Shown in pieces: positions 25,773-64,000 of a stretch of DNA of 64,000 nt. The stretch covers positions 40,692-104,691 of the forward strand of contig CANQTM010000003.1 of NCBI GenBank assembly GCA_947626825.1. Direction: 5' to 3'. Source of the stretch: an uncultured Bacilli bacterium. GTDB taxonomy: Bacteria > Bacillota_I > Bacilli_A > RFN20 > CAG-631. How positions within the stretch are numbered: the first letter of the stretch is position 1; each line of letters opens with the position of its first letter. The notes below the pieces were generated by a model. That model saw only the letters and a program-made list of their open reading frames with translations, made no database searches and had not been told where the DNA came from. The translations under genes and the position numbers were made by a program.

Positions 25773-25820
25773 AATAATCACCTCTGCTTAACTTATGTAG
25801 CAAATAAAATATAATATTTT

Positions 25821-25984: not shown

Positions 25985-26001
25985 GAGGGAAAAATTAAAA
26001 T

Positions 26002-26253: not shown

Positions 26254-26430
26254 AAAATCCCACACATAAATAATAACATAAAGTCAAGCATTTTTTTCAT
26301 CTCTACATGAAAATAAATTTATATGACAAAGTCATATGTTTTTTCAAGTCTTTAAATAGTCTCTAAATAGTTTTTAATTAGTTGCATTTTTGTGTTTAAT
26401 TAGTCTCAAAAAATAAAAAAGGTGATAAAA

Positions 26431-27174: not shown

Positions 27175-27379
27175 AGGATTTTCCCCCAAGACCATTTCAT
27201 ATTACAATACAATTTTCTTATATGCAACAAATAAAAAAATATAATTTAAGTTTTTTTATGTTTTATTGATAAGATTAAATTGAAATTTTTAATATTATTT
27301 TATTTGAATTAACAAAATTTATTTCAAATATTAAAAATTAAAATTTATTGTATAAATTTTACAAATTTTTTTAAAAAAA

Positions 27380-27452
27380 TTAGCACTCAAGTGTTGACAT
27401 TGCTAAAATGTGATGTATAATATAATTAGCAGTCAGGAAATATGAGTGCTAA
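27380..27452 (+). promoter_or_regulatory. Doubled, degenerate CIRCE (HrcA operator) elements overlapping the hsp20 promoter
   Basis: TTAGCACTC-N9-CATTGCTAA (27380-27406) and TTAGCAGTC-N9-GAGTGCTAA (27426-27452). The consensus is TTAGCACTC-N9-GAGTGCTAA. TTGACA (27394-27399) and TATAAT (27416-27421) sit in between. Confidence 0.6.
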
Positions 27453-27481
27453 AAAATATAATAATGAAAGGAAATATTATT

Positions 27482-27901
27482 ATGAACAACTATAACAAAA
27501 GAAACCAAATTGATTTATTTGATGATGATGATCCATTTTTCACACCATTCGTTAATTTTTTCTCAAAGGAAAGTAGCAAACTTTTAAAAACCGATATTAA
27601 AGAGACTGATAAAGAATACACTCTTTTAATGGATGTTCCAGGTTTGACAAAAAAAGACATTAAAATTTCTTTAGATCAAAAATATCTAACAGTTACTGCA
27701 ACAAGTGATCAAGAATCACAAGAAGGAACAAAATATATTCGTAAAGAAAGATTCTATGGTACAAGTACACGTTCTTTCTATGTAGGAGATATTGAACAAA
27801 AAGATATTAAAGCATCTTTTGAAAATGGTCTTTTAATTATTGTAATTCCTAAGAAGAATTATCAAAAAGCAGAAGAGAAAAAATATATCGATATCAATTA
27901 A
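27482..27901 (+). CDS. Hsp20/alpha-crystallin family small heat shock protein
   Basis: The alpha-crystallin domain (DIKETDKEYTLLMDVPGLTKKDIKISL...GLLIIVIPK) is present. The start is taken at ATG 27482 after AAAGGA. The track ORF starts at an upstream GTG. Confidence 0.85.
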   Translation: MNNYNKRNQIDLFDDDDPFFTPFVNFFSKESSKLLKTDIKETDKEYTLLMDVPGLTKKDIKISLDQKYLTVTATSDQESQEGTKYIRKERFYGTSTRSFYVGDIEQKDIKASFENGLLIIVIPKKNYQKAEEKKYIDIN

Positions 27902-27974
27902 TTCGATATAAATTAATTGCATAAAAGGTTGGCTTCATATATAATTTTGCCAACCTTTTTTATAAATTTGTTTA

Positions 27975-28469
27975 TTATTGTACTTTTAATCTTTCTTTTA
28001 ATTTTGTTTCAATTTCATCTTTAACAACAGATGGAACATAATTTGATATATCACTATTAAATAAAACAAGTTCTTTTATAGAAGATGATGATAAAAATAA
28101 ATTGTTAGCTGAAGGAAACAACAAAATTATTTCAATTGATTTATCTATTGTATGGTTAAATTGAAACAATTGCATTTCAGCATCAAAATCATTATGATTT
28201 CTTAATCCCCTAATAATGGCAGTAGCATGAACTTTTTGAGCATATTTCATTACTAAGTCATCAGAAAATACTACATTAACATTTTTTAAATGAGCACAAG
28301 ATTTTTTTACAATGTTAATTCTTTCTTCAATTGAAAAAATACATTTTTTATTGGGATTTACAGAAACCAAAACATAAAGTGTATCACATAATTTACTAGC
28401 TCTAGTTATAATATCAAGATGACCATTTGATAAAGGATCAAATGTTCCAGGATAGATAGCAACTTTCAT
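27975..28469 (-). CDS. coaD: Phosphopantetheine adenylyltransferase
   Basis: 164 aa. VAIYPGTFDPLSNGHLDII is the classic CoaD nucleotidyltransferase motif. Confidence 0.9.
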   Translation of the reverse strand: MKVAIYPGTFDPLSNGHLDIITRASKLCDTLYVLVSVNPNKKCIFSIEERINIVKKSCAHLKNVNVVFSDDLVMKYAQKVHATAIIRGLRNHNDFDAEMQLFQFNHTIDKSIEIILLFPSANNLFLSSSSIKELVLFNSDISNYVPSVVKDEIETKLKERLKVQ

Positions 28470-28474
28470 GATAG

Positions 28475-28978
28475 TTAGCCTCCTTGTTTTAAATATTTTT
28501 TAACTTCTCTTCTACTTTTAAATATATAAATTTTTTTCTCAGGGTGATTATTAATAAATTGATAAATGCGTTGACGACTTGTTTTATAAAAATCTTTAAA
28601 GACCCATTTTAAATAATCTTTAGATAATTCTTCATCACACAAGTCACTACGAGAATCTCTATGTTTTCCTTTGTATTTAAAATATCTTTTAATAACTGAA
28701 AACAAACAAGTAAAGCGATTTAAATCTAGAAAATAAATTGTGTCGCATTGTTCAAAACGAGCAAGAGCATTATTTAAAAAATTTCCATCAATAATCCAAT
28801 TTTCTTTTTCTAAAAAGCTCATAATATAATCCATATCATCATATTCTGGTTGTTTCCAATTGTGTTTATAAATGAGGGCATCAAGATGAAGATAATCAAC
28901 TTTTATTTTATTGGCTAAACTTACAGTAAATGTTGATTTACCACTACCAGAATTGCCAAGTACTATAATTTTAGGCAT
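28475..28978 (-). CDS. P-loop NTPase (topology modulation protein FlaR-like / adenylate-kinase-like)
   Basis: 167 aa, Walker A LGNSGSGKST. Confidence 0.5.
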   Translation of the reverse strand: MPKIIVLGNSGSGKSTFTVSLANKIKVDYLHLDALIYKHNWKQPEYDDMDYIMSFLEKENWIIDGNFLNNALARFEQCDTIYFLDLNRFTCLFSVIKRYFKYKGKHRDSRSDLCDEELSKDYLKWVFKDFYKTSRQRIYQFINNHPEKKIYIFKSRREVKKYLKQGG

Positions 28979-29107
28979 CTTTAGACCTCACTTTCTTTTT
29001 TATTATACAACACTAAAAGAAATTAAAGAATATAAATTTTAATTAGATTGAATTATATTTTTCCCTGAATTATAATATCTTTAGTGTTACAAGGAGACTT
29101 TACTATT

Positions 29108-49837: not shown

Positions 49838-52462
49838 TTGGAGGGTAAAAATATGTTTAAAAAATTATTAGGTATACTCTTATTGATTGGTTTAGTAAGT
49901 TGTGATGCAAACGAAATAAGCCATTCTTTAGACTCAACACCAAGCACTCAAGATTCTTCATCTAGTAGTGCTGATGAATCTTTATCAAACTCAAATTCGA
50001 GCAGTAGTTTTGATTCATCATCTTCTAGTGATTCAAGTGCAACAGAAGTTATTACATCAATTGTAATAAATAATAAAATTGATGAATTAGTTCAAGGTTC
50101 AACGCACACATTAAATGTTGCAGTAACACCATCTTCATTGGCAAGTCAAGTTGTTTATAAATCATCATTGCCATCTTGTGCATCAATAAGTAATGATGGT
50201 CAAATAACTGCATTGCTTCCTGGTTCAACTATTATTACTGTTTCAGCACCTGATTATTCAATTAGTGATTCTTTTACATTAAAAGTAACAAAGAAAATCA
50301 TTCATGTTGAAAATGTAACTATAAATAATAGTGAAACAGAAATGGTTGAAACAACTACATTAAAATTAGATGTAACAGTTTCACCACAAGATGCCACAAA
50401 TAAAGAATTAACTTATACAAGTAGTGATAATAGTTATGCTACTGTTTCTAATGATGGACTAATTACTGCTTTAAAACCAACTCTTGAAGGACAACCAGTT
50501 GTAATAAAAGCAATTTCAAAAGATAATACTCAAATAGAAGACTCTTTATCTTTAACAATTAAAAGAAAAGCTATTTCAGTTCAAAGTATCACAGCAACAT
50601 TATTATCAAATGATATCATGCCAAATGATAAAATAAATTTTGAGGTAACATTATTACCTGAAAATGCTGATAATAAAGAATATACTGTTACAACTACAAC
50701 TCCTGAAATTTTAGAAGTTGGAAATAATAATGTTGTTACAGCTTTAAAAGAAGGTTTAGGAAAATTAACATTTACATCTAACGATGTTCCAACAGTTACT
50801 ACTAGTTTAGATGTTCCTGTATTAAAATCAACAAATTATGATTATATTAAAGAAAAATTAGCTGAAGCTTCTACTATTGAACATGAAAGTGCAAGTAGTG
50901 GACATTTTGAAAAAAATGAAAAAAGTTTTTATGATGATGAGCCAGAAGTAATTACAAATAATTGGACAGTTTATACTGATGGTGTAATGATTGATAGAAA
51001 CGATAATTTAGGTCATACAAAAAAATTATCAGTTAAAAACGGCAATATGCTTTGTGTTTTAGAAGATTCAACAAGTGACTATAGTAGTTATAATGGAGTT
51101 ACTTATGAAGAAGATGAATTCGATGATTGGTTTAATAAAGAAGAAAATGCATTCTTACCTGAAATCGAAAGTTCTAGTAATAGCGTTGGTTTATGTAACT
51201 ATATTGCTGACTATTTAGATAATTATTCATCATTCTCTAAAGACGAAATTGTTGAAAATGCTAGAGTTATAGTTAAACCAGGTAGCAATCAAGAAACAAT
51301 TACCCTAACTAGTTCGGCAGAATATAATGATTCTTATTGGGATGAAAGCGTTTCTTACATGGAAGTTAGTATGAAATTAATTTTCAATGAAAACAATGCT
51401 TTAGTAAGTTTTGAAAGTTCTTATCTTAAAATAGATAGTGATAATTATGATGCTGAAAATCATACATCAATTGACGAAAGCCAAAATGATACAACAGTTA
51501 TAAGTGCAACTATAAATTATGATACACGTGTAGCCACTGATGACAACAGAATTAAAAAAGAAGATTATTATGTCACTTCATTTGAAATTGATACATCTAA
51601 TTTTATCGATGGTAATAAAATCAATTTAAAAGAAGATGTAAATATTGCTGTTATAAATGAAGTTCCAGAAAGACACCTTGAAGAAAAATATACTGTTTCA
51701 TCAAACAACGAAAGCATTATTGAATGTTATAATTCAAATAGAACAAGTATTTGCGGCCAAAGTGAAGGACAAGCAACAATAACTGTCACTTCAGAAGGCG
51801 GTGTTTCTGCATCAATTGAACTTACTGTAATCGTTCCTGAAGTTAGTTCAATATCACTTTCTTATTTACCTTCATCTATGAGAGTTGGCGAAAAACAAGA
51901 AGAAATTTATGCTGTTGTTAATCCTAGTGGTGCAGATCAAAGTTATGAAATTGTTTTAACAGAAGATTCTAAAGATTTTGCTACTTTAGAAAAAGTAAAT
52001 GATAAATATGATTTAACTGCTATTGCTCCAGGAAAAGTAACAATCATTGCAAGAAGTTTATCTAAACCAGAAATAACTGATGAAGAAACAATTACAATTA
52101 AACCTGAACTTAACGTTGAAAGTGCTAAAGAAACATTAATCAATAACACATATTCTGCTGGATATTCTGGCAATGAAACTCTAGTATTTAATGGAGATGG
52201 AACTGGCGTACTTAAAGTTGATGGTGGTGGTGAATTTACATTTAAATGGGAACTAGTATTAACTGAAACATGGTTAGGACAATCTTTCCAATTAAATATA
52301 ACTGATATAGTGGAAATTTCTAGTTCAGAAGATGATTATTTATATAAAGGAACTACATCTACATGGACTGTTTCAGAGGATGCAGATCAAATTTCTGTAA
52401 AAATATATGATGATTTCTGGGAAGAAGATACTACACTAACTTATGAATTGGTAAGTGAATAA
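49838..52462 (+). CDS. Large surface lipoprotein with Ser-rich linker and Big_2-type Ig-like domains
   Basis: 874 aa. The N-terminus has a lipobox LVSC at MFKKLLGILLLIGLVSCD. There is a Ser-rich low-complexity stretch (aa 30-70) and a Big_2-like segment (VTSIVINN...LNVAVTPSS...ISNDGQITALLPG). Confidence 0.6.
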   Translation: MEGKNMFKKLLGILLLIGLVSCDANEISHSLDSTPSTQDSSSSSADESLSNSNSSSSFDSSSSSDSSATEVITSIVINNKIDELVQGSTHTLNVAVTPSSLASQVVYKSSLPSCASISNDGQITALLPGSTIITVSAPDYSISDSFTLKVTKKIIHVENVTINNSETEMVETTTLKLDVTVSPQDATNKELTYTSSDNSYATVSNDGLITALKPTLEGQPVVIKAISKDNTQIEDSLSLTIKRKAISVQSITATLLSNDIMPNDKINFEVTLLPENADNKEYTVTTTTPEILEVGNNNVVTALKEGLGKLTFTSNDVPTVTTSLDVPVLKSTNYDYIKEKLAEASTIEHESASSGHFEKNEKSFYDDEPEVITNNWTVYTDGVMIDRNDNLGHTKKLSVKNGNMLCVLEDSTSDYSSYNGVTYEEDEFDDWFNKEENAFLPEIESSSNSVGLCNYIADYLDNYSSFSKDEIVENARVIVKPGSNQETITLTSSAEYNDSYWDESVSYMEVSMKLIFNENNALVSFESSYLKIDSDNYDAENHTSIDESQNDTTVISATINYDTRVATDDNRIKKEDYYVTSFEIDTSNFIDGNKINLKEDVNIAVINEVPERHLEEKYTVSSNNESIIECYNSNRTSICGQSEGQATITVTSEGGVSASIELTVIVPEVSSISLSYLPSSMRVGEKQEEIYAVVNPSGADQSYEIVLTEDSKDFATLEKVNDKYDLTAIAPGKVTIIARSLSKPEITDEETITIKPELNVESAKETLINNTYSAGYSGNETLVFNGDGTGVLKVDGGGEFTFKWELVLTETWLGQSFQLNITDIVEISSSEDDYLYKGTTSTWTVSEDADQISVKIYDDFWEEDTTLTYELVSE

Positions 52463-53851
52463 TTGGAGAAAATAATAAAAATGAAAAAAATTTATTTATT
52501 ATTAGGAATTGCATTAGGACTTTGTAGTTGTGGTGGCAACACCATAACTACAAGCAATAGTTCTTCATCAAATGTTGAAGAACAAACCACTTTAAATATT
52601 ATTGGCCCTAATGAAGTTTCAATTGGTGATGTTGTCAAATATACAGTTGAACCAAACATTGATGTAAGTTTTCAAAGTTCTGATGATTTAGTTTTAAGTA
52701 TTAATGGCAGAGGTGAAGCTACAACATTTAAAGAAGGTCAAGTTACAATTACAGCAACATCTAAAGAAGATGCAAATGTTAAAGGAACTTTAAATGTTAA
52801 AGTTAATCCTGCAAAAATGCAATTACCAAATGATTATTTAGGAATTACCGAATTAATTAATAAAGCCAAAGAACTTGAAAGTTCAGCTAGCGAAATTTCA
52901 ATGGAAACAATTAAAACAGATCTTAAAGAAACAAGATTACAAAATGTTAAACTTTATGATGGTAATTTCTATATTGAAACAATTGATGATGAATACACTA
53001 ATCATTCTGGATATACACATGAAATAACTACAGTATTTAATGGCGTTTATCAAAACAATTATTATGAAATCCATGATGGAAACATAGGTAGTTATGTTAT
53101 TAAACAAAAAATTGTTGATGAAAATGCTGTTAGAGACAATAATGAAATTTTAGAAAGTGATGCTATTAAAAAAGGCACAAATCCATCTTATGTTTCAGCT
53201 TTTACTTATGATATTTATTCATTATGGGGTGCAAGAACATTAGATTTAAAAATTGATGGTGAAGTCACAAATGAAGGCATGACATTAACATTAAGTAATA
53301 TTTATCTATTTTGTTGGGCTGATGGTGTCACAAATGAATCAACATATTATGAAACGACTTTAAAATTTGATAATGATGGTTTCCTATATGAAGGAATATA
53401 TCAAGAAATCGAATATCAAGAAAATCAATATGATACAAAAATCAATGATTTTGTTGAAGATGCTGAAATAAAAGACACAAAAACTGTGACATTTAATGCC
53501 AAAAAAGGCGTAAAATTTGCAAGCAATACTTCTAACATTTTACCAACAGATTATTTTGTATCATCTGTTACTAAAGCAAATTATGCAATAGATGTACATG
53601 TTAATGATCTAATTTTAGTTAGAAATGTTGAACTTGTTGAATATGAAGGTGCTAAAGCATTAGATATTGATGAAATTAAGATAATTGATGTTATTAATGA
53701 TGATGATAAAATATTATTATCTAAGGATGCCTTTTCTGGTCAATATATGGCTATGCAAGAAGGAACTGCATATTTACTTTGTCAAATGACTTATTCAAAT
53801 GATGTTCAATTTTTAGTTGAAATAGTAATCTTACCAAAGGAAGGTGCTTAA
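52463..53851 (+). CDS. Lipoprotein with Big_2-type Ig-like domain
   Basis: 462 aa. The N-terminus MKKIYLLLGIALGLCSCGG has a lipobox. A Big_2-like region follows (LNIIGPNEVSIGDVVKYTVEP). The start abuts the previous stop. Confidence 0.55.
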   Translation: MEKIIKMKKIYLLLGIALGLCSCGGNTITTSNSSSSNVEEQTTLNIIGPNEVSIGDVVKYTVEPNIDVSFQSSDDLVLSINGRGEATTFKEGQVTITATSKEDANVKGTLNVKVNPAKMQLPNDYLGITELINKAKELESSASEISMETIKTDLKETRLQNVKLYDGNFYIETIDDEYTNHSGYTHEITTVFNGVYQNNYYEIHDGNIGSYVIKQKIVDENAVRDNNEILESDAIKKGTNPSYVSAFTYDIYSLWGARTLDLKIDGEVTNEGMTLTLSNIYLFCWADGVTNESTYYETTLKFDNDGFLYEGIYQEIEYQENQYDTKINDFVEDAEIKDTKTVTFNAKKGVKFASNTSNILPTDYFVSSVTKANYAIDVHVNDLILVRNVELVEYEGAKALDIDEIKIIDVINDDDKILLSKDAFSGQYMAMQEGTAYLLCQMTYSNDVQFLVEIVILPKEGA

Positions 53852-56216
53852 AATGAAAAAATGCTTATTTGTTTTAGCAAGTTTTCTTTTATTATCGTCT
53901 TGTCAAAATAACCAAACAAGTAATAGTTTATCAAATACAGATAGTTCTTCTTCAAGTGAAGAAATTAAAAATGAAACTGTTGAAGATATTTTAAATAAAA
54001 TAGAAGATAATTATAGTGTTGTTTATACAAGTGCTTCTGGAAAATATCATATTTATAAAACAAAAAATTATTTTTATGATGAAGAAATTGGTGGCGGACA
54101 ATTTGTTTTAGATGACGATACAATGTATATATATACTGTTCATAACAATGTAATCGTTCCAAGAAATAAATATTCAGCAACTAGAACTGATTTTGAAAAT
54201 TTCTTTCCAAAATTTGAAGTTAACATGGATAAATTTGAAATAATAGATGACATGTATGTTACTTCTGATGCACAAACCATGACAAGTTTATGCAAATTAA
54301 TTAATATGTCTTCTTATAATCGTGCAGAATTATTCATGGATGATAATTTTCTTAATTTTAGATTTTATGATAATTACAATCGCATGTTGGTTAGTGGTAA
54401 ATTTTATGGGGTTGGTGAAACAAATTACAATATTTTAGATGAATATCTTAATCAAAAAATTGCACCAGAAACAGAAACTTACACAAATAGTCCACTAATT
54501 GATGTATTAGGCGATTTAAATAATAATATGACATTTGTTGGACAAAGTGTTACTTCCCATGAAGGCTTATCATTATTATTAACAGATAAATATTTAGCCA
54601 CTTTTTCAGGTAATGGTAAACAAATATCTGATGGTGATGGCTATTTACAATTAAATGACAATTTACATCAATTTACATTAAAAGATAATAAATTAGATGT
54701 AGATTATGAATATCTTGATACTGATGAAACATTAGACATGAAAAGTTTTACTCTTCAAAGACATGATTTTACAAAATTTAAAGAAATAGATACTAATACA
54801 TATATTTCAAGCGATTATTATAATGTTAAAAATTTAACAGATTTTCTATTATTAGATGCGCAAAATGTTAATTTAGTCAAAATAAAAGTTGACACAACAT
54901 CTAAAGAAGCAGAAATAACTTTTTTACAAGATCAAGTTGAATTATATACTGGAAGAATATTTAACATTAACTCTTCATCATTACCTCAACTTGATGAATA
55001 TTTAGAAAACAAATCCGAACCAGCATTGAAATATTATGAAAATAGTGAATTAATGGCTGCTGTTGCTAACTTAAATGATAATTTTACATATATTCGCGAT
55101 GATTTAACTCCACAAGATAATAATGAAGAAGGAATTGAATTTTATGGTGTACGATCAACTGTTAATGGTCGTAAAGAATACAAATCATATTATAATAATT
55201 TCCCATCAACTGATTATATCACTTATAATCAAAAAGCTTATCATTATGTATTAAATGGAGATAGTATCATTCTTAAAAATAATGGTTCAATATCAAAAAA
55301 TAAATATGAAGAATATTTTTCTTTTTCAAAAATTAATTTTCATTATTTTGAACCTTTAGGAAATAATAAATATTTTACTTCATCAACAAGAATATTAAGA
55401 CAATTATCAAAATTAATCAGTTCAAATCCATATAATTTAGGACGTTGTTATATAAGTATTGAAAATGGAACTATAAATATTGAAATGCAAGATCAATACT
55501 TAAATACTAATTCTATAGGTCATCTTGAAAAAATAAACGAAACCTCTTTACCAATGGTTGATAATTATAAAACAAATAATCAAGATGAAAACAATTTATT
55601 TCCAAAATATAATAATAGTAAAATTAAAGATGTTGTTAAACAAATCAATGATGGTAATAATTTTACAGTTGCTTATCAAGATGATATAGAATATGGCATA
55701 GAATTTACTGCAGATGATTATGATTATTATACAAATGAAACTATTTATTATGGTATGTATAAAGATGGTTTTATAACTGGATCGTTATCAAAATATATTT
55801 ATAATTTTGGTTGGGTAACTGATGAAGAAACAGAAGTTAGAGAATTCACATTAAGTGATCATCCATCATTATATTTAAGTAGTATGGCAGAAATGAATCC
55901 TTTCCAATCATTAAGTGATGACATGATTGATAGATTTGTTCCATATCAAAACAACAAATTTCTATCATTAGATGAAGATATTTGTAGCGTATTTAGTTTG
56001 GCACTACAAATGGGCGGTGTTGTTGATGTTGTTGGAGTTATGTTAAGTTTTAATAATAAAAATGAATTAGTAATTGAAGTTATTGATGAAATTGAAGTTA
56101 CTTATGACGAAAACAACATTCGTAACGAAGAATATATTGTTTTTGCAACAGCAATTATTACTGATGTAGGCACTACAAAAATTCCATCAAATGCTCTTAT
56201 TCCAACAATGAAATAA
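53844..56216 (+). CDS. Large hypothetical lipoprotein
   Basis: 790 aa. The signal and lipobox MKKCLFVLASFLLLSSCQNN are present. It overlaps the previous gene by 8 nt. No other domain was recognised. Confidence 0.5.
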   Translation: MLKMKKCLFVLASFLLLSSCQNNQTSNSLSNTDSSSSSEEIKNETVEDILNKIEDNYSVVYTSASGKYHIYKTKNYFYDEEIGGGQFVLDDDTMYIYTVHNNVIVPRNKYSATRTDFENFFPKFEVNMDKFEIIDDMYVTSDAQTMTSLCKLINMSSYNRAELFMDDNFLNFRFYDNYNRMLVSGKFYGVGETNYNILDEYLNQKIAPETETYTNSPLIDVLGDLNNNMTFVGQSVTSHEGLSLLLTDKYLATFSGNGKQISDGDGYLQLNDNLHQFTLKDNKLDVDYEYLDTDETLDMKSFTLQRHDFTKFKEIDTNTYISSDYYNVKNLTDFLLLDAQNVNLVKIKVDTTSKEAEITFLQDQVELYTGRIFNINSSSLPQLDEYLENKSEPALKYYENSELMAAVANLNDNFTYIRDDLTPQDNNEEGIEFYGVRSTVNGRKEYKSYYNNFPSTDYITYNQKAYHYVLNGDSIILKNNGSISKNKYEEYFSFSKINFHYFEPLGNNKYFTSSTRILRQLSKLISSNPYNLGRCYISIENGTINIEMQDQYLNTNSIGHLEKINETSLPMVDNYKTNNQDENNLFPKYNNSKIKDVVKQINDGNNFTVAYQDDIEYGIEFTADDYDYYTNETIYYGMYKDGFITGSLSKYIYNFGWVTDEETEVREFTLSDHPSLYLSSMAEMNPFQSLSDDMIDRFVPYQNNKFLSLDEDICSVFSLALQMGGVVDVVGVMLSFNNKNELVIEVIDEIEVTYDENNIRNEEYIVFATAIITDVGTTKIPSNALIPTMK

Positions 56217-56400: not shown

Positions 56401-59400
56401 ATGGGAAATATTGATAACAAATTCGAAATTTGGACAAAAAAACTTTATGATATATCTAAAAAAAATTATATGATTAATTTTAGAGGGCAAAAAAATCGAT
56501 GTTTAACAATAACTAAGCCTGATATTTTTGAATTATATGATTCTTTAGTATTTAAAGATAATTCTATGTCTTTTAAAAGAGCAATTACTGCTGATACAAA
56601 TTTCAATATTTTTGCTATTAATACTTTAATTAATTGTTTAGGTAATAGTACCATTTTTGAAGAAGGAGATATTTCTGTTGCACCGAAAGTCAACAAAACC
56701 CCATATTTTATTTTAAGAAACATTAAGAAAACTGCTAATTTTTTTAAACAAGAACAAGGCATTGATGTCATGTATATGACTTTTTTATATGTAAGATGGC
56801 ATCCAATTGGCTCAACAGATGAATATTTAACACCTTTAGTTAATGTTCCTGTTTCTTTAGAACAAGATAATATCTATTCATTATTTATATTAAAAAAACA
56901 AGGTGAACCTGAAATAAACCCAATATTTTTATATATGTTAGAGCAACAACAAATGACAATACCTTCTATAAATGACAAACCATTAAAAGAATATTTGGTA
57001 GAATTAGAAAAAATATTTGCAGATTTGGATTTTGAAATAATTCAACAGGCTAATCTATGTGTACTATTTTTCCAAAAAATGGTAATGTTTAAAGATTTAG
57101 TAAATAATAAAGAAAGAATTATAAATCATCCAATCATTAAAATGTTTTGTAATGATAATGAAGAAAATACGATTTTTGATTTAGATAATTTTCCACAAAT
57201 AAAAGAAAGCCAAAAAATTGTTGTAATTGATGCAGATTCAAGTCAAAGCAAGGCTTTAGATTTAGCAACTCAAGGGCAATCATTTGTATTGCAAGGCCCA
57301 CCTGGAACTGGCAAAAGTCAAACAATTACTAATATAATAGCAAGTCAAATATATCAAGGCAAAAAAATTCTATTTGTCTCGCAAAAGACTGCCGCTTTAG
57401 AAGTTGTTTTTAATATGCTTAAGAAAATTGGACTTAGTGATTTAGCCTTAACTTTACATAACAATAACAAATTAAATAAAAATGAAATTATAAATGAAAT
57501 TTATGCTCCTTTTTCATTTAAAAAGTTTAATGTTAAAGAAGAAAAAATAAATTATTTAATGAAAATCGATCAAATTTTAAATGATTTAGAACAATATAAT
57601 GAACTTTTAAATACCAAAGTTTATTCATTAAATGATACATTATATGAATTAATTAATAAATATTTTGATCTTATAGAAATATCAAAAAGTAATTTTAAAA
57701 TTAATTTTGATTTAACTTCATTAGATTATAAAACACTTCTAGAAAATGTAAATTCAATTAATCTTTTTGAAAACGAATGGAAATCAATTACAATAAATAA
57801 TGATGATTGTTATGATTATTTTGCTATTGACGATATATCATTACAAACCAAAGAAAAATTAGATAACGATTTATTATTAATTTACAATAAAATTGAACCA
57901 TTAGTAAACACATACTTGAATTTAAAAAAATATATTAGTAATTTATCTTTAACTTTTGATAATTCTTTAAATATTTTAGACGATTTAAATAAATTAAATA
58001 ATATTGATTTTAATGATATTAAAATAAACAATATTGAACTTTTAAATGAATATATCGATGATATTAATTTTTATTTAAAAAGTGATGAAGACTTAAAAAA
58101 GACATACCAAGAAATAAATAATATTTTTTATGATAATATTTTTAATATTGATATGAAAGAATTAGCAAATATTATTGAAAATAATCTTAATATTATTAAA
58201 ACTAATATTAAAGATTTTGCTAATTGTTCACATTACGAAATAATGCAACAATTAAATAATTATGCTAATAGTCTTAATAATTTTATCAATAATAAGGAAA
58301 CATTTGATAAAACAACTAATTATTTAACAACTTTATTACATGTTTCTTTGGATACTTTATTATCTTATGACTTATACCATATAAATGAAGAATTAAAAAA
58401 TAACACATATTCTTTAAGTTATTTTTCTGTAGCTTATAGTAATTATGATGTTGTTATAAATAATTTAAATAGATATAAAGAATTAAAAGAAAACCAAAAA
58501 CATTTAAAAAAATTAATTACTAATTTATCATATGAAGCTATTTTAACTTTAAATGAAAATCAAGTAGATAATTATTTAATTATTTTAGATGAAAAAACTA
58601 ATTGGTTTAATTTTAGTAAAAAAGAAGCTAAAAAAGATGTTATTAATAAAATATCAACTTATTTATACGATAATCAAACAAATATAGAAACTGTTATAAA
58701 CATTTTACATCTTGTTAAAAATTATCAAGAAATTACTAATCACTTAAAGCAATTAGGTCAAGCAATAAAGCCATTATTAAATGACACGATTAATCTTGAT
58801 AATAGTGAAATTGACTGCCAAAGTTATATCAATGAATTAGACAAATTGCATCATATTATTATATTATTACCAAATGTTAAAGAAAATATTTTAAAAAGTA
58901 TTTTAAGTTTTGATAATGCTTTAAATTTTAAAAATAATCTTTACAATCTTTTAGAATGTTTACCAATGGTTATAAATAATTATGATAATGATTTACAAAC
59001 TTTAATAGAAAACGAAAAAATTGTAAATGAAACATTAAAATTTGTTAACACATTAAAATTATATTGTAAAGATTTTACACTATTAAAAGATATTGAAAAC
59101 AAATATATTTATTTAAAAAATTATGCTAAAATCAAACAAGAAAATCAAGAAAAGAAAACTATTTTAGATAATATTTTTACATATGATATTTTAAAATCAA
59201 AAAAGCAATTATTTTATATAAATCAAATTAATTGTTTTGCCAAAACATATAATTTAAATCAAAACGAATTATTATTAAATTTAATAAATCACTCAAAAGA
59301 TATTTTCTTTCTTATTTTGCAATTTAAAGAAAGATATAGCCAATCTTTACCATCATATAATCATTTTAAAGAAATGTTTACCAAAGAAAAAAATCTTGAA

Positions 59401-61809
59401 AATTATGATTTAAAAGAATTGTTAGATTTAATTTATCGTTGTCAATTGAATATTAACACATTAAAAGATAAGAAAAGATTTAATAAAAATTTAATAAATT
59501 ATCGTTCAAATCCTTATTTAACCAATTTTATTGATTATTGTCTTGAAAATAATTTAAAAGAAGATTTAGCTAATATTTATTTAAAAAAGATTTATCATAA
59601 TTTAATTGAAAATTTTATTTATGATAATGATATTTTAGAAAATTTAAATAAAACAAAATTAGATAATGATATAAAAGAATTAGAAAAATTAAGTTATTAT
59701 CAAATGGAAATTTCAAGACAACAAGTGAAAAGTGCTTGGATAGATAATGTTCCATCGATTAAAACAATAATGGCTAGTAATGATGAAAGAAACTTTTTAC
59801 AAAATGAAAAAAGAAAAGTTAGAAAAAAATCATTAAGAGTAATTTTAGATCACATACCTCATATTTTAATGGCATTAAAACCATGTTTGATGATGTCACC
59901 ATTAACTGTTTCTAATTATCTTGAAAATGATAATTATGATTTTGATTTAGTTATTTTTGATGAAGCTTCACAAATAAAACCAGAAGAAGCAATCGGATCA
60001 ATTTATCGAGGAAAACAAGTTATAATTGCTGGTGATAGCAAACAATTACCACCAACAAGTTTCTTTGAAAAACAAATAGAAAATGATGAAGATTATGATG
60101 ATGAAGACATCGATGAAACTATTGATGAATCAATTTTAGATTTAGCATCTAGAAAATTACCATCAATCACTTTATTATGGCATTATCGTAGTAAAATTGA
60201 AAGTTTAATTGCTTTTTCTAATAATAATTTTTATGACAATGAATTAATAACTATTCCATCTGCTAAACAAAATCAAATTGATTATGGCATTGAATATATT
60301 AAAGTTGATGGCATTTATGAAAAAAATAGCCGTTATGCTAATGTTATCGAAGCCAAAAAGGTTGTAGAATTAATTTATCAACATATTTTAAACCATAATG
60401 ATAAATCATTAGGAATCATTGCTTTTGGCGAAAGACAAAGAAATACTATTGAAAAAGTATTATTTGATTATCGAAAAAATTTAAAAAATCAAGATGAAAA
60501 GCTTTTTAAAGAAAGTGAAGAATTCTTTAATAATAATGATAAAGAACCATTTTTTATTAAAAATATTGAAAATGTTCAAGGCGATGAAAGAGATGTCATT
60601 ATATTTTCAATAGGTTATGGTCCTGATGAAGAAAATAACTTTAAATATAATTTTGGACCTTTGTCGAAACAAGGCGGACAAAGAAGATTAAATGTCGCTA
60701 TTTCAAGAGCAAAATATAATCTTAAAATAGTTTGTTCTTTTTTACCAACTGATTTAGAATTATCACGAATTGAATCTGAAGGTGGACGTTTATTTAAAGA
60801 ATATCTTGAATATGCCCAAATGGTTTCACTTGGTATTCATAAATTTAATGATGATATTTTATCAGTTGATGGTGTAAAAGCAAGCATTGCATCATTTTTA
60901 CATGAAAATGGTTATAAATATTTATTAAACTATGGCTATTCGTCTTTTAAAATCGATATTGCTATATTTAATCCTAATGATGATAAGCAATTAATTTGTG
61001 GAATTATAATTGATAATCAAGATGCTAATATTACCATTAAAGATAAAGAAGTTATTCTAAAAAAAGTTTTATATTATAATGAATGGAAAATTTACAATGT
61101 AAATTGCAAACTTTATTTTGAAAATCCTTCATTTATTAATGAAAACATTTTAGAATTCTTAAACAATAATATAGTTGAAGAAAAAATTGATTTAATAACC
61201 ACTGATGAAAATGATTTAATTACTATTAAAGAAGATGAAAGTGATGATACTAGTTATAATTTTATATTATATCAAGAATTTGATTTTAATGAATATTTAG
61301 CTATTAATGGTTTAACAGATGTCAAACTTTGGGTCATTGATGAAAAAATAATGACTGCATTTTTAAACAAAGAAGGTCCAACTTTATTTAAAATATTAGT
61401 TGATAAATTTGCTAAAGCATTTAATGCAACAGCAAAAGAAATAACAGGTAGTATTCAAAAAGTTATCACAAAAGAACCATTTATATGGAATCGACAAAAT
61501 AACTTTGTTTATAATAGTCATGAAAATCCTTGTATTGTTCGTCAATGCATTGATAACAAAAGTAGAAGTTTTGAAAGTATTTATCCATTAGAAATTAGTA
61601 ATTGCTTAACCACAATTATTCGTCAAAATATTGGTTTATCTGCTGATGGCATTATTGAAGAAGCTATGCGTATTTATAATCAAAAAAATAAATCTGCATC
61701 TTTAATAATAAATTATAAAACACATTTAGAACGTTTAAAAGAAGATAAAAAAATTCAAGAAATAAATGGCGTCTATACAATTTATCAAGGAGGGAAAAAT
61801 CATGAATGA
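56401..61809 (+). CDS. Giant SF1 (Upf1/DNA2-like) helicase with DUF4011-like N-terminal domain and C-terminal Vsr/DUF559-like PD-(D/E)xK nuclease plus DUF3320-like tail
   Basis: 1802 aa. Walker A VLQGPPGTGKSQTITNII is at about aa 297. About 800 aa of K/N/L/I-rich low-complexity helical insertion follows. Motif II is VIFDEASQ, motif III IIAGDSKQLPPT, motif VI GGQRRLNVAISRAKYNL. After that, FKIDIAIFNPND...GIIIDNQD looks like an endonuclease core. Domain names are from recall of this architecture and are not searched. Confidence 0.75.
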   Translation: MGNIDNKFEIWTKKLYDISKKNYMINFRGQKNRCLTITKPDIFELYDSLVFKDNSMSFKRAITADTNFNIFAINTLINCLGNSTIFEEGDISVAPKVNKTPYFILRNIKKTANFFKQEQGIDVMYMTFLYVRWHPIGSTDEYLTPLVNVPVSLEQDNIYSLFILKKQGEPEINPIFLYMLEQQQMTIPSINDKPLKEYLVELEKIFADLDFEIIQQANLCVLFFQKMVMFKDLVNNKERIINHPIIKMFCNDNEENTIFDLDNFPQIKESQKIVVIDADSSQSKALDLATQGQSFVLQGPPGTGKSQTITNIIASQIYQGKKILFVSQKTAALEVVFNMLKKIGLSDLALTLHNNNKLNKNEIINEIYAPFSFKKFNVKEEKINYLMKIDQILNDLEQYNELLNTKVYSLNDTLYELINKYFDLIEISKSNFKINFDLTSLDYKTLLENVNSINLFENEWKSITINNDDCYDYFAIDDISLQTKEKLDNDLLLIYNKIEPLVNTYLNLKKYISNLSLTFDNSLNILDDLNKLNNIDFNDIKINNIELLNEYIDDINFYLKSDEDLKKTYQEINNIFYDNIFNIDMKELANIIENNLNIIKTNIKDFANCSHYEIMQQLNNYANSLNNFINNKETFDKTTNYLTTLLHVSLDTLLSYDLYHINEELKNNTYSLSYFSVAYSNYDVVINNLNRYKELKENQKHLKKLITNLSYEAILTLNENQVDNYLIILDEKTNWFNFSKKEAKKDVINKISTYLYDNQTNIETVINILHLVKNYQEITNHLKQLGQAIKPLLNDTINLDNSEIDCQSYINELDKLHHIIILLPNVKENILKSILSFDNALNFKNNLYNLLECLPMVINNYDNDLQTLIENEKIVNETLKFVNTLKLYCKDFTLLKDIENKYIYLKNYAKIKQENQEKKTILDNIFTYDILKSKKQLFYINQINCFAKTYNLNQNELLLNLINHSKDIFFLILQFKERYSQSLPSYNHFKEMFTKEKNLENYDLKELLDLIYRCQLNINTLKDKKRFNKNLINYRSNPYLTNFIDYCLENNLKEDLANIYLKKIYHNLIENFIYDNDILENLNKTKLDNDIKELEKLSYYQMEISRQQVKSAWIDNVPSIKTIMASNDERNFLQNEKRKVRKKSLRVILDHIPHILMALKPCLMMSPLTVSNYLENDNYDFDLVIFDEASQIKPEEAIGSIYRGKQVIIAGDSKQLPPTSFFEKQIENDEDYDDEDIDETIDESILDLASRKLPSITLLWHYRSKIESLIAFSNNNFYDNELITIPSAKQNQIDYGIEYIKVDGIYEKNSRYANVIEAKKVVELIYQHILNHNDKSLGIIAFGERQRNTIEKVLFDYRKNLKNQDEKLFKESEEFFNNNDKEPFFIKNIENVQGDERDVIIFSIGYGPDEENNFKYNFGPLSKQGGQRRLNVAISRAKYNLKIVCSFLPTDLELSRIESEGGRLFKEYLEYAQMVSLGIHKFNDDILSVDGVKASIASFLHENGYKYLLNYGYSSFKIDIAIFNPNDDKQLICGIIIDNQDANITIKDKEVILKKVLYYNEWKIYNVNCKLYFENPSFINENILEFLNNNIVEEKIDLITTDENDLITIKEDESDDTSYNFILYQEFDFNEYLAINGLTDVKLWVIDEKIMTAFLNKEGPTLFKILVDKFAKAFNATAKEITGSIQKVITKEPFIWNRQNNFVYNSHENPCIVRQCIDNKSRSFESIYPLEISNCLTTIIRQNIGLSADGIIEEAMRIYNQKNKSASLIINYKTHLERLKEDKKIQEINGVYTIYQGGKNHE

Positions 61810-63499
61810 AAATATTAATCGTGAAACATTATTAAACCCTTTATTATTCAATGATAAAAGTGAAACGACAAATAATGATGATGAAAACAATGATGTAATC
61901 AACAAAGATACTATTTTAAATAATAAATATCTAATTATTGATAGACTTCAAGATTCATCATCAAAAACACAAGTTTATGTAGCTAAATATAATAATCAAT
62001 ATTATACACTTAAAGTTTATAATAAAGATTTTAAAATTTCTTTAGATATTTTAGATATCTTAAAAAAATTAGAATTTGATTATCTTGAAAAAATATATGA
62101 ATTTTTTGAACTTGATGATCAAAGACAAGTTATTGTTAGTAAATATTATTTAAATGGAAATTTAAAAGACAAAAAAATTTCTATAAAAGATTTAAAAGAC
62201 TATATAATTCCATCATTAAATGAAGCAATAAATATTTTGCATGAAAATCACATTTTACATATGGATATTAAACCTGCTAATATTATGTTTGCCGATGATA
62301 AAAAACATGTTGTTTTAATCGATTATAGTTCAGCATTAAAAATAAATAATATAAAAGATGTAATAATTTGCCAAAAGCCATTTATTACACCTCATTATAG
62401 TGCTATTGAAACATGTACTTCTCACCAATGTTCTATTTATTCAGATTATTATTCATTTGGAATTACTTTATATGAATTATTATTAGGACATAGTCCTTTT
62501 ATAAATTTAGATGATGAACAGATTATTCGTTTTATGCAAACTAATAGATTAGCCTTTGATGAGTCAATTGATTTGAATTTTAAAAATTTAATTTTAGGAT
62601 TAACTTATCGTGATATTGCCAATCGTAATGATTATAATAATTTTAATGTTCGTTGGACTTATAAACAAGTATCTGATTGGTTAAATGGTAAAACAATGAT
62701 TGTTCCTGGTGAAGGTATATTAACAAAAACAAATATAATGCCATTTAATTTTAAAAATAAAGTTTATTTAAATGTAGATGAATTAATTGATGCTTTAGCA
62801 ATAAATTGGAATGATGGCATTAGATGTTTAAGTTCAAAAAATTTATCAAATTATTTTAAAAACATTAATCATCAATATTACGAAATAACATTAAATTTTG
62901 AAATTAAATTTTTTGATAAAAACATTAAAATTAATCCTGATGTAGAATTTTTTAAATATATTTATACATTATTACCACAAACAAGTAAATTTTATTATAA
63001 AGGATTTGTTTATGAATCTATACAAGATTTAGGTTTTGCTTTAATTGATACATTAGATGCCAATAAAGACACAGAAACATCAGCAAACTTTTTTAAAAAT
63101 TTATTAAAGAACAAAATATTATCAACTTATTGCTCATTGAAATCAATTGATAACCAAGAAATGATTGACATGATAAAAGAAATTGAAAATACTTTTCAAA
63201 GTGAACTTTTGACTAATAGAGAGAAACAAAAAAATCTATATACATTAAGTTACATTCTTACAGGGCAAAAAGAATATAAAATAGATGATCAAATTTTTAA
63301 CAATAAAGATGATTTTATTAATTATATTGTTGATGCCTATAAAAAGTCATTTACCGATTTGAATAAAATTTGTAAAACATTAATGCCAAGACGCAATTTA
63401 GATGTTAAATTAGAAGCGTGGCTTGATGCATTAGGTTATAAAAATGAAGTTAATAAATTTATTGCCTTAATTACTACTCAAGGAGGTGATGAGGAATGA
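61802..63499 (+). CDS. Eukaryotic-like Ser/Thr protein-kinase-like protein with about 280-aa uncharacterised C-terminal domain
   Basis: The start is at ATG 61802 after AGGAGGG and overlaps the helicase stop by 8 nt. Kinase motifs are a beta3 Lys (YTLKVY), a catalytic loop HMDIKPANIMF, a DYS in the DFG position, and an APE-like TPHYSAIE...SDYYSFGITLYELLLGHSPF. Confidence 0.65.
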   Translation: MNENINRETLLNPLLFNDKSETTNNDDENNDVINKDTILNNKYLIIDRLQDSSSKTQVYVAKYNNQYYTLKVYNKDFKISLDILDILKKLEFDYLEKIYEFFELDDQRQVIVSKYYLNGNLKDKKISIKDLKDYIIPSLNEAINILHENHILHMDIKPANIMFADDKKHVVLIDYSSALKINNIKDVIICQKPFITPHYSAIETCTSHQCSIYSDYYSFGITLYELLLGHSPFINLDDEQIIRFMQTNRLAFDESIDLNFKNLILGLTYRDIANRNDYNNFNVRWTYKQVSDWLNGKTMIVPGEGILTKTNIMPFNFKNKVYLNVDELIDALAINWNDGIRCLSSKNLSNYFKNINHQYYEITLNFEIKFFDKNIKINPDVEFFKYIYTLLPQTSKFYYKGFVYESIQDLGFALIDTLDANKDTETSANFFKNLLKNKILSTYCSLKSIDNQEMIDMIKEIENTFQSELLTNREKQKNLYTLSYILTGQKEYKIDDQIFNNKDDFINYIVDAYKKSFTDLNKICKTLMPRRNLDVKLEAWLDALGYKNEVNKFIALITTQGGDEE

Positions 63500-64000
63500 G
63501 CGGACCAAAATATAATCGTTACCGTATGTTAGAAGCAAAAAGAAGAGAATTATTGAAATTGCAAATTCAAAAAGAATTATATAATAAAGAAAATGTTCGA
63601 GTAAATAAATTAATTATTGCTGAAAATGATGGTATTACAGTCGCCAAACGCCAAATTGATAAGCAAAAAGAAGTAACATTAAAAAATATTAAAACATATT
63701 TAAATAATATTAAAATTGAATTAGAAAAATTGAAAAATAATAGCGACACTATTATAGCAATCAACGATGATTCAATTTTAAAGTTTTATAATGAATATTA
63801 CCAAATTTATCAAAATCTTGTTATTGAAAGTTCTTATTTAAACAATACAGTAACATTAAAAGAATTAGATAAATATTATCAAAAAATTAACAATACTTTT
63901 TTTGAAATATGTAATTATAATATTACTTCATTAAAAAAAGTAAAACAAAAAGAAAAACAACTAAAAGTTGATCTATCTAATAAATTAAATGATAATTTAG
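63496..64000 (+). CDS. Hypothetical coiled-coil protein, partial (runs off window end)
   Basis: ATG 63496 overlaps the kinase stop (ATGA) and follows GGAGGTGATGAGGA. The frame stays open for 168 codons to the window end (MSGPKYNRYRMLEAKRRELLKLQIQ...). It is not in the supplied track because no stop codon is reached. Confidence 0.55.
   Translation, partial: MSGPKYNRYRMLEAKRRELLKLQIQKELYNKENVRVNKLIIAENDGITVAKRQIDKQKEVTLKNIKTYLNNIKIELEKLKNNSDTIIAINDDSILKFYNEYYQIYQNLVIESSYLNNTVTLKELDKYYQKINNTFFEICNYNITSLKKVKQKEKQLKVDLSNKLNDNL

What the first reader, a model, noticed from the sequence alone, without database searches (positions are those of the whole stretch)
56401..61809. Helicase carries an about 800-aa low-complexity helical insertion between Walker A and motif II
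The Walker A motif lies at about aa 297, but DEAS-type motif II is only at about aa 1180. The intervening region is extremely K/N/L/I/E-rich, with repeated short words (NNLN..., KNL..., NIEL...). This is far longer than the 1B/1C insertions of Upf1/DNA2-like helicases. It may be a coiled-coil arm or stalk, a sensor, or a scaffold for the partner kinase.
Basis: seen in the sequence. Interest (0 to 1): 0.55.

Follow-up and report, generated by a model that had tools for sequence, protein, structure and literature searches.

The report
Modular helical insert in defence helicase
The roughly 800-residue helical stretch that splits this helicase's motor domain is real, but it is the normal build of a known family of anti-phage helicase-nucleases (Hhe / ProA / PDC-S37) and consists of duplicated helical modules of about 133 residues; its asparagine-rich look comes from the AT-rich genome.

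Summary
ORF 56401-61809 encodes 1802 aa, with Walker A at aa 299-306 and DEASQ at aa 1187, 888 aa apart. There is no frameshift.

The insertion is not special to this gene. In 121 relatives the same gap is 433-1447 aa, in discrete classes of about 625, 760, 910 and more than 1050 aa. The insertion sequence alone hits only this family, always at the same position.

New here:
- The insert is all-alpha, with about 35 helices of at most 36 aa. It is not a long coiled coil.
- It contains four modules of about 133 aa in the order A-A'-B-B'.
- Family length classes track module copy number: 1A+1B, 2A+2B, 3A+3B. This fits an out-and-back modular arm at the Upf1 domain-1C position, but does not prove it.
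- The N-richness and lack of G/P are lineage AT bias. The repeated short words are largely explained by composition.
- The insert is not kinase-specific. Eight kinase-less relatives have the same 2A+2B insert.

Beyond the finding, the helicase is gene 1 of a conserved cluster that PADLOC does not list as a system. The cluster is helicase, kinase, helical protein, Zn-ribbon-FHA, NrdG-like radical SAM and ClpB-like AAA+, plus PP2C in some loci. The window end cuts it off.

The parts
56401..61809 (+). DUF4011-type SF1B (Upf1-like) helicase with a Vsr-like nuclease domain, 1802 aa; Hhe / ProA / PDC-S37 superfamily
   Evidence: PADLOC PDC-S37 E=1.8e-272. NCBIfam ProA 882 bits (cutoff 1500) and Hhe 566 bits (cutoff 2000).
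56440..56940 (+). DUF4011 N-terminal domain (aa 14-180)
   Evidence: Pfam PF13195, 65.3 bits against a cutoff of 22.2
57238..57477 (+). N-terminal half of RecA domain 1A with Walker A GPPGTGKS (aa 299-306 = nt 57295-57318)
   Evidence: strands and helices in the AF2 model; invariant columns in A2
57478..59880 (+). All-alpha insertion (aa ~360-1160) at the topological site of Upf1 domain 1C. The entry (360-496) and basic exit (1025-1160) segments are the better conserved parts. The middle evolves fast (10-15% identity to relatives).
   Evidence: AF2 models, pLDDT 78 and 81, helices only; conservation profile; charge analysis
57889..58284 (+). Helical module A (aa 497-628)
   Evidence: hhalign self-comparison: 496-606 matches 630-739, prob 92-94%, E about 2e-7; controls reach at most 3.6%. 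Module HMM hit.
58291..58686 (+). Helical module A' (aa 631-762), a tandem copy of A
58681..59076 (+). Helical module B (aa 761-892)
   Evidence: hhalign: 760-852 matches 893-976, prob 88-90%, E about 1.5e-6. Module HMM hit covers aa 761-880; the 892 end follows the module range used to build the HMM.
59086..59472 (+). Helical module B' (aa 896-1024), a tandem copy of B
59959..60054 (+). Motif II DEASQ (aa 1187-1191) and motif III GDxKQLPP (aa 1211-1218): C-terminal half of RecA 1A
60148..60738 (+). RecA domain 2A (AAA_12, aa 1250-1446) with QGDERD and RRLNVAISRAK
   Evidence: Foldseek prob 1.0 to Aquarius, SETX/Sen1, IGHMBP2, UPF1 and DNA2
60883..61158 (+). Vsr / MTES_1575-like endonuclease domain (aa 1495-1586) with a degenerate motif: family GIECDG..Y..RTARDRDRLR, here GIIIDN..(2-aa deletion)..TIKDKEVILK
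   Evidence: Pfam PF18741, 34.3 bits, below the cutoff of 38.2; alignments
61802..63499 (+). Partner Ser/Thr kinase (565 aa from the ATG at 61802). An SD AGGAGGG lies 8 nt upstream, and the start overlaps the helicase stop (ATGAATGA). A conserved C-terminal domain of about 270 aa has unknown function.
   Evidence: orthologues downstream of the helicase in L001, L011, L003, L002, L031, L006 (E 1e-85 to 1e-100) and L081/L082
63496..64000 (+). 5' part of the third operon gene (MSGPKYNRYRM...). Its start overlaps the kinase stop (ATGA), and the window end truncates it.
   Evidence: phmmer E=1.7e-14 to the 454-aa gene that follows the kinase next to P0122; the same gene is present in all six kinase-linked loci

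Best explanation
The ORF is a member of the DUF4011 / Upf1-like helicase plus Vsr-like nuclease superfamily, which contains the anti-phage proteins Hhe and ProA and the PADLOC candidate PDC-S37. The region of about 800 aa between Walker A and motif II is that family's standard accessory domain. It is inserted into RecA domain 1A at the position of Upf1 domain 1C (the Sen1 'prong'). Shown: it is all-alpha, with about 35 helices of 10-36 aa. It has conserved entry and exit segments around four five-helix modules of about 133 aa, ordered A-A'-B-B' (aa 497-1024). Across the family the insertion length falls into classes that match module copy number: 1A+1B at about 625 aa, 2A+2B at about 910 aa, 3A+3B at about 1050-1200 aa. 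The asparagine-rich, G/P-free look here is AT-bias drift acting on a weakly constrained sequence. Inferred: A and B numbers rise in step while the order stays AA..BB rather than ABAB. The simplest reading is that outgoing A modules pack against returning B modules, giving a hairpin-like helical arm of tunable length that projects from the motor. The modules are net acidic and the most divergent part of the protein, while the exit segment next to the RecA core is basic and conserved. I therefore propose that the arm is a protein-facing regulatory or sensing surface (or oligomerisation surface) that gates nucleic-acid access to the 5'-3' helicase channel, and not a DNA-binding element. In this lineage the helicase works within a translationally coupled operon with a Ser/Thr kinase and further genes. 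The arm predates that association and does not depend on it.
For: Family membership. Gap of 433-1447 aa in all 121 relatives, in discrete classes. The insertion alone, searched against 1.84 billion representatives, gives 64 hits, all in the same family and starting at about residue 330; several are colinear over 2-813. The Hhe profile is colinear with the 910-class protein of L001 (115-1669 against 127-1711). The PDC-S37 profile (1550 positions) is colinear with the 625-class protein of L021. All-alpha models with pLDDT 78 and 81. Internal repeats at prob 88-94% against at most 3.6% for reversed controls and at most 0.3% for column-shuffled controls. Module counts scale with length, A and B hits do not overlap, and the order is AABB or AAABBB. 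Gaps and extras of the other classes fall inside the A and B regions. Composition of relatives compared with ours. Identity is 10-15% in aa 431-980 against 50-68% in the core. Acidic modules and a basic exit segment. Kinase independence. RecA core matches Upf1-like helicases at Foldseek prob 1.0.
Against: The 3D arrangement of the modules is not established. pTM is only 0.40-0.41, no coordinates or PAE were available, and the insertion-only model has no PDB match at E<=1e-3. A/B pairing is therefore inferred from copy-number co-variation alone. The module HMMs were built from the 910 class, so the 2A+2B count there holds by construction. In the longest and most divergent proteins the counts are less tidy (L031 4+2, L003 2+3, P0125 2+3), and the 760 class shows partial modules. 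No experiment or paper on the function of this insertion was found. The defence function is by homology only: scores fall below both NCBIfam equivalog cutoffs, and the visible left flank is housekeeping genes, not a defence island.
Confidence: 0.6

Rival explanations
1. The modules are independent helical bundles strung like beads. They form a passive spacer or linker, with no A-B pairing and no sensing role.
For: Each module has its own self-consistent five-helix pattern. pTM is low at 0.40-0.41. Sequence conservation is very low.
Against: A pure spacer would not be expected to keep A and B numbers equal while preserving AA..BB order across classes. Nor would it keep length within a few residues inside a class across bacteria and archaea.
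Confidence: 0.22
2. The insertion is a docking scaffold for the downstream kinase, at least in this subclade.
For: The kinase is translationally coupled. It is conserved next to the helicase in all of the closest relatives. The kinase-linked clade shows the widest range of insert lengths, 887-1447 aa. Its conserved C-terminal domain of about 270 aa has no assigned function.
Against: Eight relatives with the same 2A+2B insert and 9-10 kb of flank have no kinase. The 625 and 760 classes have none either. The insert therefore predates the kinase and exists without it.
Confidence: 0.12
3. It is a classical long two-stranded coiled-coil arm of the SMC / Rad50 / MukB type.
For: The weak best Foldseek hits of the insertion-only model are condensin, JetC and MukB arms. 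The region is L-rich and G/P-poor.
Against: Those hits have prob <=0.72, TM about 0.1 and rmsd above 50 A, and none reaches E<=1e-3. The longest predicted helix is 36 aa, with about 35 helices separated by loops.
Confidence: 0.04
4. It is a lineage-specific low-complexity expansion, or an artefact such as a frameshift, a gene fusion or a misassembly.
For: Nucleotide GC is 13-19%, N is 15-16%, and there are short AT-rich DNA repeats.
Against: The ORF is continuous and colinear with relatives of the same length from organisms with ordinary composition. An identical public fragment exists (P0121). Word repeats are largely at shuffle level.
Confidence: 0.02

Closest known systems
Hhe (Gao et al. 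2020 single-gene anti-phage system; NCBIfam NF042953, PADLOC PDLC02194)
   Same: Both have DUF4011 at the N-terminus, a Upf1-like SF1B core split by an insertion of roughly 900 aa, and a Vsr-like endonuclease after the helicase. The Hhe profile aligns colinearly with the 910-class relative L001. Hhe is reported active against lambda, T3, T7 and PhiV-1, and needs nuclease residue E1731 (bioRxiv 10.1101/2022.06.16.496414).
   Different: Our protein scores 566 bits against a cutoff of 2000. The glutamate of the family's nuclease motif GIECDG is replaced here (GIIIDN); I did not verify that this glutamate corresponds to Hhe E1731. The motif is further eroded. Our gene sits in a multi-gene operon and is not a single-gene system.
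ProA (NCBIfam NF058533) and PDC-S37 (PADLOC PDLC05009)
   Same: These are the best-scoring named families (882 bits; E=1.8e-272). They share the domain order and the same A/B-module insertion.
   Different: True ProA (for example L038 from Pedobacter, 2237 bits) has an extra N-terminal extension of about 350-400 aa and a 1A+1B insert of about 640 aa. The PDC-S37 profile corresponds to the 625 class. Ours falls below the ProA cutoff and has 2A+2B. I found no primary literature for ProA or PDC-S37.
Upf1-like SF1B helicases (UPF1, IGHMBP2, Sen1/SETX, Aquarius, DNA2, nsp13)
   Same: The RecA 1A/2A fold and motifs match (Foldseek prob 1.0; PDB sequence hits). They also have accessory domains inserted into domain 1A.
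   Different: Their insert between Walker A and motif II is about 50-150 aa (my knowledge). Here it is about 800 aa, all-alpha and modular. They lack DUF4011 and the Vsr-like domain.
Mokosh MkoA variants (PADLOC PDLC03920)
   Same: A Ser/Thr kinase is paired with a Upf1-like helicase. One MkoA profile matches our kinase (profile positions 6-267) and our helicase (785-1077).
   Different: There the two are fused in one protein, without DUF4011, without the helical arm, and with different partners.

Membership tests
SF1B Upf1-like helicase | Walker A, motif II DExx, motif III GDxxQLPP, motifs V and VI, and two RecA domains with the Upf1-like fold | tested here: met
   Motifs at aa 299, 1187, 1211, 1393 and 1428. 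AAA_11 and AAA_12 above cutoff. Foldseek prob 1.0 to Aquarius, SETX, IGHMBP2, UPF1 and DNA2.
DUF4011 helicase superfamily | N-terminal DUF4011 domain (PF13195) above the gathering score | tested here: met
   65.3 bits against 22.2, aa 14-180
DUF4011 helicase superfamily | Long helical insertion between Walker A and motif II | tested here: met
   888 aa here; 433-1447 aa in 121 relatives
Hhe (NCBIfam equivalog NF042953) | Whole-protein score of at least 2000 bits | tested here: not met
   566 bits. The relatives L001 and L012 reach only 849 and 935 bits.
Hhe | Intact Vsr-like nuclease motif (GIECDG...RDRDRLR). E1731 is required in E. coli Hhe. | tested here: not met
   Ours reads GIIIDN..TIKDKEVILK with a 2-aa deletion, and Pfam MTES_1575 scores 34.3, below 38.2. 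True ProA-class proteins also lack the E, so loss of activity is not proven.
ProA (NCBIfam equivalog NF058533) | Whole-protein score of at least 1500 bits | tested here: not met
   882 bits
ProA (NCBIfam equivalog NF058533) | N-terminal extension that covers profile positions 1 to about 356 | tested here: not met
   Walker A is at aa 299 here, against about 696 in the true ProA of L038, which aligns 28-1928 to profile 1-1903. The shorter proteins of L021 and L005 align only from profile position 357.
PDC-S37 (PADLOC candidate, single gene) | Match to the HMM | tested here: met
   E=1.8e-272
PDC-S37 (PADLOC candidate, single gene) | Stand-alone gene | tested here: not met
   The gene heads an operon with translational coupling to the kinase and to a third gene.
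SMC/Rad50-type coiled-coil arm | Two very long uninterrupted antiparallel helices | tested here: not met
   The longest helix is 36 aa. Foldseek hits to SMC arms have prob <=0.72 and TM about 0.1.
Anti-phage defence system (functional class) | Experimental protection against phage | not testable with these tools
   Homology only. The visible flank is housekeeping.

The most novel reading that the evidence does not exclude
The helicase is the first gene of a conserved conflict system that PADLOC v2 does not list as a system. Its order is Hhe-like DUF4011 helicase(-nuclease), Ser/Thr kinase, helical protein of about 450 aa, Zn-ribbon-FHA protein, NrdG-like radical-SAM activase and ClpB-like AAA+ ATPase, with a PP2C phosphatase in some loci. 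In this system the A/B-module insert would be a length-tunable hairpin arm that senses an invader or docks partners. Phospho-signalling (kinase / FHA / PP2C) would replace or control the eroded Vsr nuclease as the output.
Probability: 0.3. Interest if true: 0.7.

Novelty: new member of a known kind. Interest (0 to 1): 0.38.

Why it matters
The finding as stated, an unusually long insertion, is answered: it is ordinary family architecture. Two things make the locus worth a note. First, I found no solved structure and no paper for the Hhe/ProA/PDC-S37 insertion. The analysis here gives it an anatomy: A and B modules of about 133 aa whose paired copy number sets the length classes. That is a concrete, testable hypothesis for how these large defence helicases are built. 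Second, the kinase-linked subclade belongs to a conserved cluster of six to seven genes that combines a helicase-nuclease with a full Ser/Thr phospho-signalling set, a radical-SAM activase and a Clp-like ATPase. PADLOC v2 does not list this combination as a system.

Tried and rejected
- The search for homologous proteins timed out with the full protein and with the N-terminal 450 aa.
- With the insertion alone, the search for homologous proteins returned nothing, because the word prefilter is swamped by AT-rich composition. With the C-terminal 672 aa it returned only proteins of at most 1173 aa. I therefore took full-length relatives from genome contigs and from the exhaustive HMMER search.
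- The look-up of encoding contigs did not find the window's kinase, so the source organism stays unidentified.
- Literature searches for ProA, PDC-S37, 'Prometheus', DUF4011 and the gene cluster gave no mechanistic or structural paper. 'Prometheus' is a DefenseFinder system name that I could not link to ProA.
- blastp of the insert against itself and k-mer counts found no repeats in the single sequence. The duplication became visible only at profile level.
- Foldseek of the insertion-only model gave no usable fold match.
No coordinates or PAE are returned, so A-B contacts could not be read from the models.
- Frameshift or fusion, lineage-specific low complexity, a classical coiled coil and a kinase-specific scaffold were considered and rejected or down-weighted, as set out under the rival explanations.
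Full report
**1. Observation.**
The window is very AT-rich, at about 25% GC. ORF 56401..61809 (+) is uninterrupted and encodes 1802 aa. The motifs lie at:
- GPPGTGKS, aa 299-306
- DEASQ, aa 1187
- GDxKQLPP, aa 1211-1218
- QGDERD, aa 1393
- RRLNVA, aa 1428

Pfam finds DUF4011 (aa 14-180), a split AAA_11/AAA_19 (282-365 and 1161-1220), AAA_12 (1250-1446) and a sub-threshold MTES_1575 Vsr-like nuclease (1495-1586).

The composition claim needs qualifying. Against the other proteins of the window, only N (15-16% against 8%) and L (15% against 10%) are enriched. K, I and E are close to background, although K is slightly raised in the insert as a whole. G+P falls to 0-2 per 100 residues, and nucleotide GC falls to 13-19%.

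The 'repeated short words' are largely a composition effect:
- Repeated 4- and 5-mers are within the shuffle range.
- 3-mers seen at least 4 times are only modestly above it (16 against 9.9 +/- 2.7).
- blastp of the insert against itself gives no off-diagonal hit.
- TRF finds only short AT-rich DNA repeats.

**2. Is the insertion special to this gene? No.**
PADLOC and NCBIfam place the protein in the Hhe / ProA / PDC-S37 superfamily. Those profiles are themselves 1550-1911 positions long.

I scanned one genome per species with a C-terminal alignment and fetched 80 loci from Firmicutes, Bacteroidota, Proteobacteria, Planctomycetes and archaea. In their full-length ORFs the Walker A to DE[AS]xQ distance runs from 433 to 1447 aa. 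It clusters at about 625, 760, 820, 910 and above 1200 aa.

An exhaustive HMMER search with the insertion alone (aa 330-1150) against 1.84 billion representatives gave only 64 hits at E<=1e-3. All are in proteins of this family, and the match starts near residue 330. Several are colinear over the whole 813 residues. The closest, P0122 (1796 aa), has a gap of 887 aa. P0121 is a public fragment 100% identical to aa 992-1150.

Two profile comparisons confirm that the insertion belongs to the family:
- The NCBIfam Hhe profile aligns in one piece with the 910-class protein of L001 (115-1669 against 127-1711).
- The PADLOC PDC-S37 profile is colinear with a 625-class protein.

The long insertion is thus family architecture, and there is no frameshift.

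Two things are lineage-specific:
- **Composition.** Relatives have N 3-7% and G+P 4-10% in this region.
- **Divergence.** Identity to relatives is 10-15% in aa 431-980 (23% to P0122), against 50-68% in the helicase core.

Only the edges of the insert (aa 330-430 and about 980-1150) are well conserved.

**3. Anatomy of the insertion.**
Two AlphaFold2 models were built on an alignment of 22-23 family members: aa 270-1460 (pLDDT 78, pTM 0.40) and aa 355-1125 (pLDDT 81, pTM 0.41). Between the two halves of RecA 1A they show only helices, about 35 of them, 10-36 residues long.
- The RecA core matches Aquarius, SETX/Sen1, IGHMBP2, UPF1, DNA2 and nsp13 at Foldseek probability 1.0.
- The insertion alone has no PDB match at E<=1e-3. 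The weak top hits are generic SMC, JetC and MukB arms, with TM about 0.1.

It is therefore not a classical coiled coil.

Profile-profile self-comparison of the 910-class alignment reveals internal duplications with a period of about 133 aa:
- aa 496-606 matches 630-739 (prob 92-94%, E about 2e-7).
- aa 760-852 matches 893-976 (prob 88-90%, E about 1.5e-6).
- A and B resemble each other only weakly (prob 22-33%).
- Reversed-block controls peak at 3.6% and column-shuffled controls at 0.3%.
- The predicted helix patterns of A against A' and of B against B' agree.

HMMs of modules A and B, searched over 121 family proteins, give the following counts:

| Insertion length | Modules found |
|---|---|
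| about 625 aa | 1A+1B |
| about 760 aa | partial second copies |
| about 910 aa (ours and 35 others) | 2A+2B, order A-A'-B-B' |
| 1056-1204 aa | 3A+3B, order AAABBB |
| longest, most divergent proteins | up to 3-4 of each, but uneven (for example 4A+2B, 2A+3B) |

The gaps and extras of the other classes fall inside the A and B regions. Module copy number therefore explains the discrete length classes.

**4. How it probably works (inference).**
By position between motif I/Ia and motif II, the insert occupies the site of Upf1 domain 1C, the 'prong' of Sen1. That site sits over the nucleic-acid channel and modulates binding and unwinding (established knowledge of Upf1-like structures).

A and B numbers rise together while the order stays AA..BB and not ABAB. 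That is hard to obtain by simple tandem duplication of one unit. It suggests that outgoing A modules pack against returning B modules, forming a hairpin-like arm of modular length.

Modules A, B and B' are net acidic (median charges -10, -5.5, -7.5). The conserved exit segment next to the core is basic (+8).

I therefore favour a protein-facing regulatory, sensing or oligomerisation arm, with only its base near the nucleic acid. The 3D arrangement itself is not shown: pTM is low, and no coordinates or PAE were available.

**5. Relation to the kinase.**
The real kinase start is most likely the ATG at 61802. It has an AGGAGGG Shine-Dalgarno sequence and overlaps the helicase stop (ATGAATGA).

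Orthologous kinases follow the helicase in the six best-scoring loci (L001, L011, L003, L002, L031, L006) and next to P0122. They share HxDxKPxN, a DFG-like Asp, the beta-3 Lys and a conserved C-terminal domain of about 270 aa.

Eight relatives with the same 2A+2B insert and 9-10 kb of flank have no kinase at all. The insert is therefore not a kinase-specific scaffold.

**6. Beyond the finding.**
The neighbourhood of P0122 and all six kinase-linked loci share a conserved cluster in this gene order:
- helicase
- kinase
- helical protein of about 450 aa
- Zn-ribbon-FHA protein
- NrdG-like radical-SAM activase
- ClpB-D2-like AAA+ ATPase
- a PP2C phosphatase in L031 and L002

In our window the third gene starts at 63496 (MSGPKYNRY...), overlaps the kinase stop, and matches that helical protein (E=1.7e-14). 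The window then ends. PADLOC v2 has no system with this composition, and I found no paper describing it.

In ours and in P0122 the Vsr-like motif is eroded: GIECDG..RDRDRLR has become GIIIDN..KDKEVILK. The other kinase-linked relatives keep it. True ProA-class proteins also lack the Glu, so loss of activity is not proven.

**7. Verdict.**
The insert is helical and arm-like, but it is ordinary for the family, it is not truly low-complexity, and it is not kinase-specific.
- The protein is a new member of a known kind. It falls below the equivalog cutoffs for both Hhe (566 of 2000 bits) and ProA (882 of 1500 bits).
- The modular A/B anatomy and the conserved kinase / FHA / rSAM / AAA+ cluster are the parts worth following up.

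Noticed in passing
window 63496-64000 (+); L081 6001-17391; L001, L002, L003, L006, L011, L031: The helicase and kinase are the first two genes of a conserved cluster. The order is helicase, STK, helical protein of about 450 aa, Zn-ribbon-FHA, NrdG-like radical SAM and ClpB-like AAA+, followed by PP2C in L031 and L002. L001 has two BspA-type LRR genes inserted. The window ends inside gene 3. PADLOC v2 has no matching system.
   Followed up: partly
window 60883-61158 (aa 1495-1586): The Vsr / MTES_1575-like nuclease motif is eroded in this protein and in its closest relative P0122: GIECDG has become GIIIDN or GILLDN, there is a 2-aa deletion, and RDRDRLR has become KDKEVILK. The other kinase-linked relatives keep the canonical motif. 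Nuclease activity here is doubtful but not excluded.
   Followed up: partly
window 61766-61809: The mechanical ORF call for the kinase (ATG at 61766) is probably too long. The ATG at 61802 has a strong SD (AGGAGGG) and overlaps the helicase stop codon (ATGAATGA). Gene 3 likewise starts with an ATGA overlap at 63496. This looks like translational coupling along the operon.
   Followed up: yes
window 61802-63499 (kinase): The kinase has no glycine-rich loop. It reads HMD where its orthologues read HKD, and DYS where they read DFG. The poor G-loop (only one Gly) is shared by all orthologues. Its C-terminal 270 aa form a conserved domain with no family hit. In L004 the partner gene keeps only that domain and lacks the kinase.
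   Followed up: partly
L038, L033, L046, L047 and other loci (Bacteroidota and others): True ProA-class proteins (NCBIfam 2237 bits for L038) carry an extra N-terminal region of about 350-400 aa ahead of DUF4011, with Walker A near residue 700. They have the short insert of about 640 aa and read GIL/V.DG in place of GIECDG in the nuclease motif.
   Followed up: partly
one search hit list (P0042, P0072 and others): All 120 listed hits to the C-terminal helicase-nuclease half are at most 1173 aa. Some lie on megabase contigs (783 aa on 2.25 Mb, 669 aa on 3.5 Mb). They may be split or truncated genes, stand-alone C-terminal versions, or a ranking artefact of that search.
   Followed up: no
window 49838-56216 (+): Directly upstream of the helicase are three consecutive large ORFs of 874, 462 and 790 aa. 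The first has Big_2 / Ig-like domains, the second only a sub-threshold Big_2 hit, and the third no Pfam hit. They are probably surface proteins, and no defence genes are visible on this side.
   Followed up: no
window ~24000-29000: Cumulative GC skew reaches its minimum near 26-28 kb, and gene orientation switches there from mostly the minus strand to mostly the plus strand. A serine resolvase gene lies at 25176-25781. No dnaA was seen among the ORFs scanned.
   Followed up: no
literature: PMC10250203 (P. aeruginosa cDHS1): In Pseudomonas aeruginosa a core DUF4011 gene sits beside a radical-SAM gene on the flank of a defence hotspot. This echoes the DUF4011 and radical-SAM linkage in the cluster found here.
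   Followed up: no
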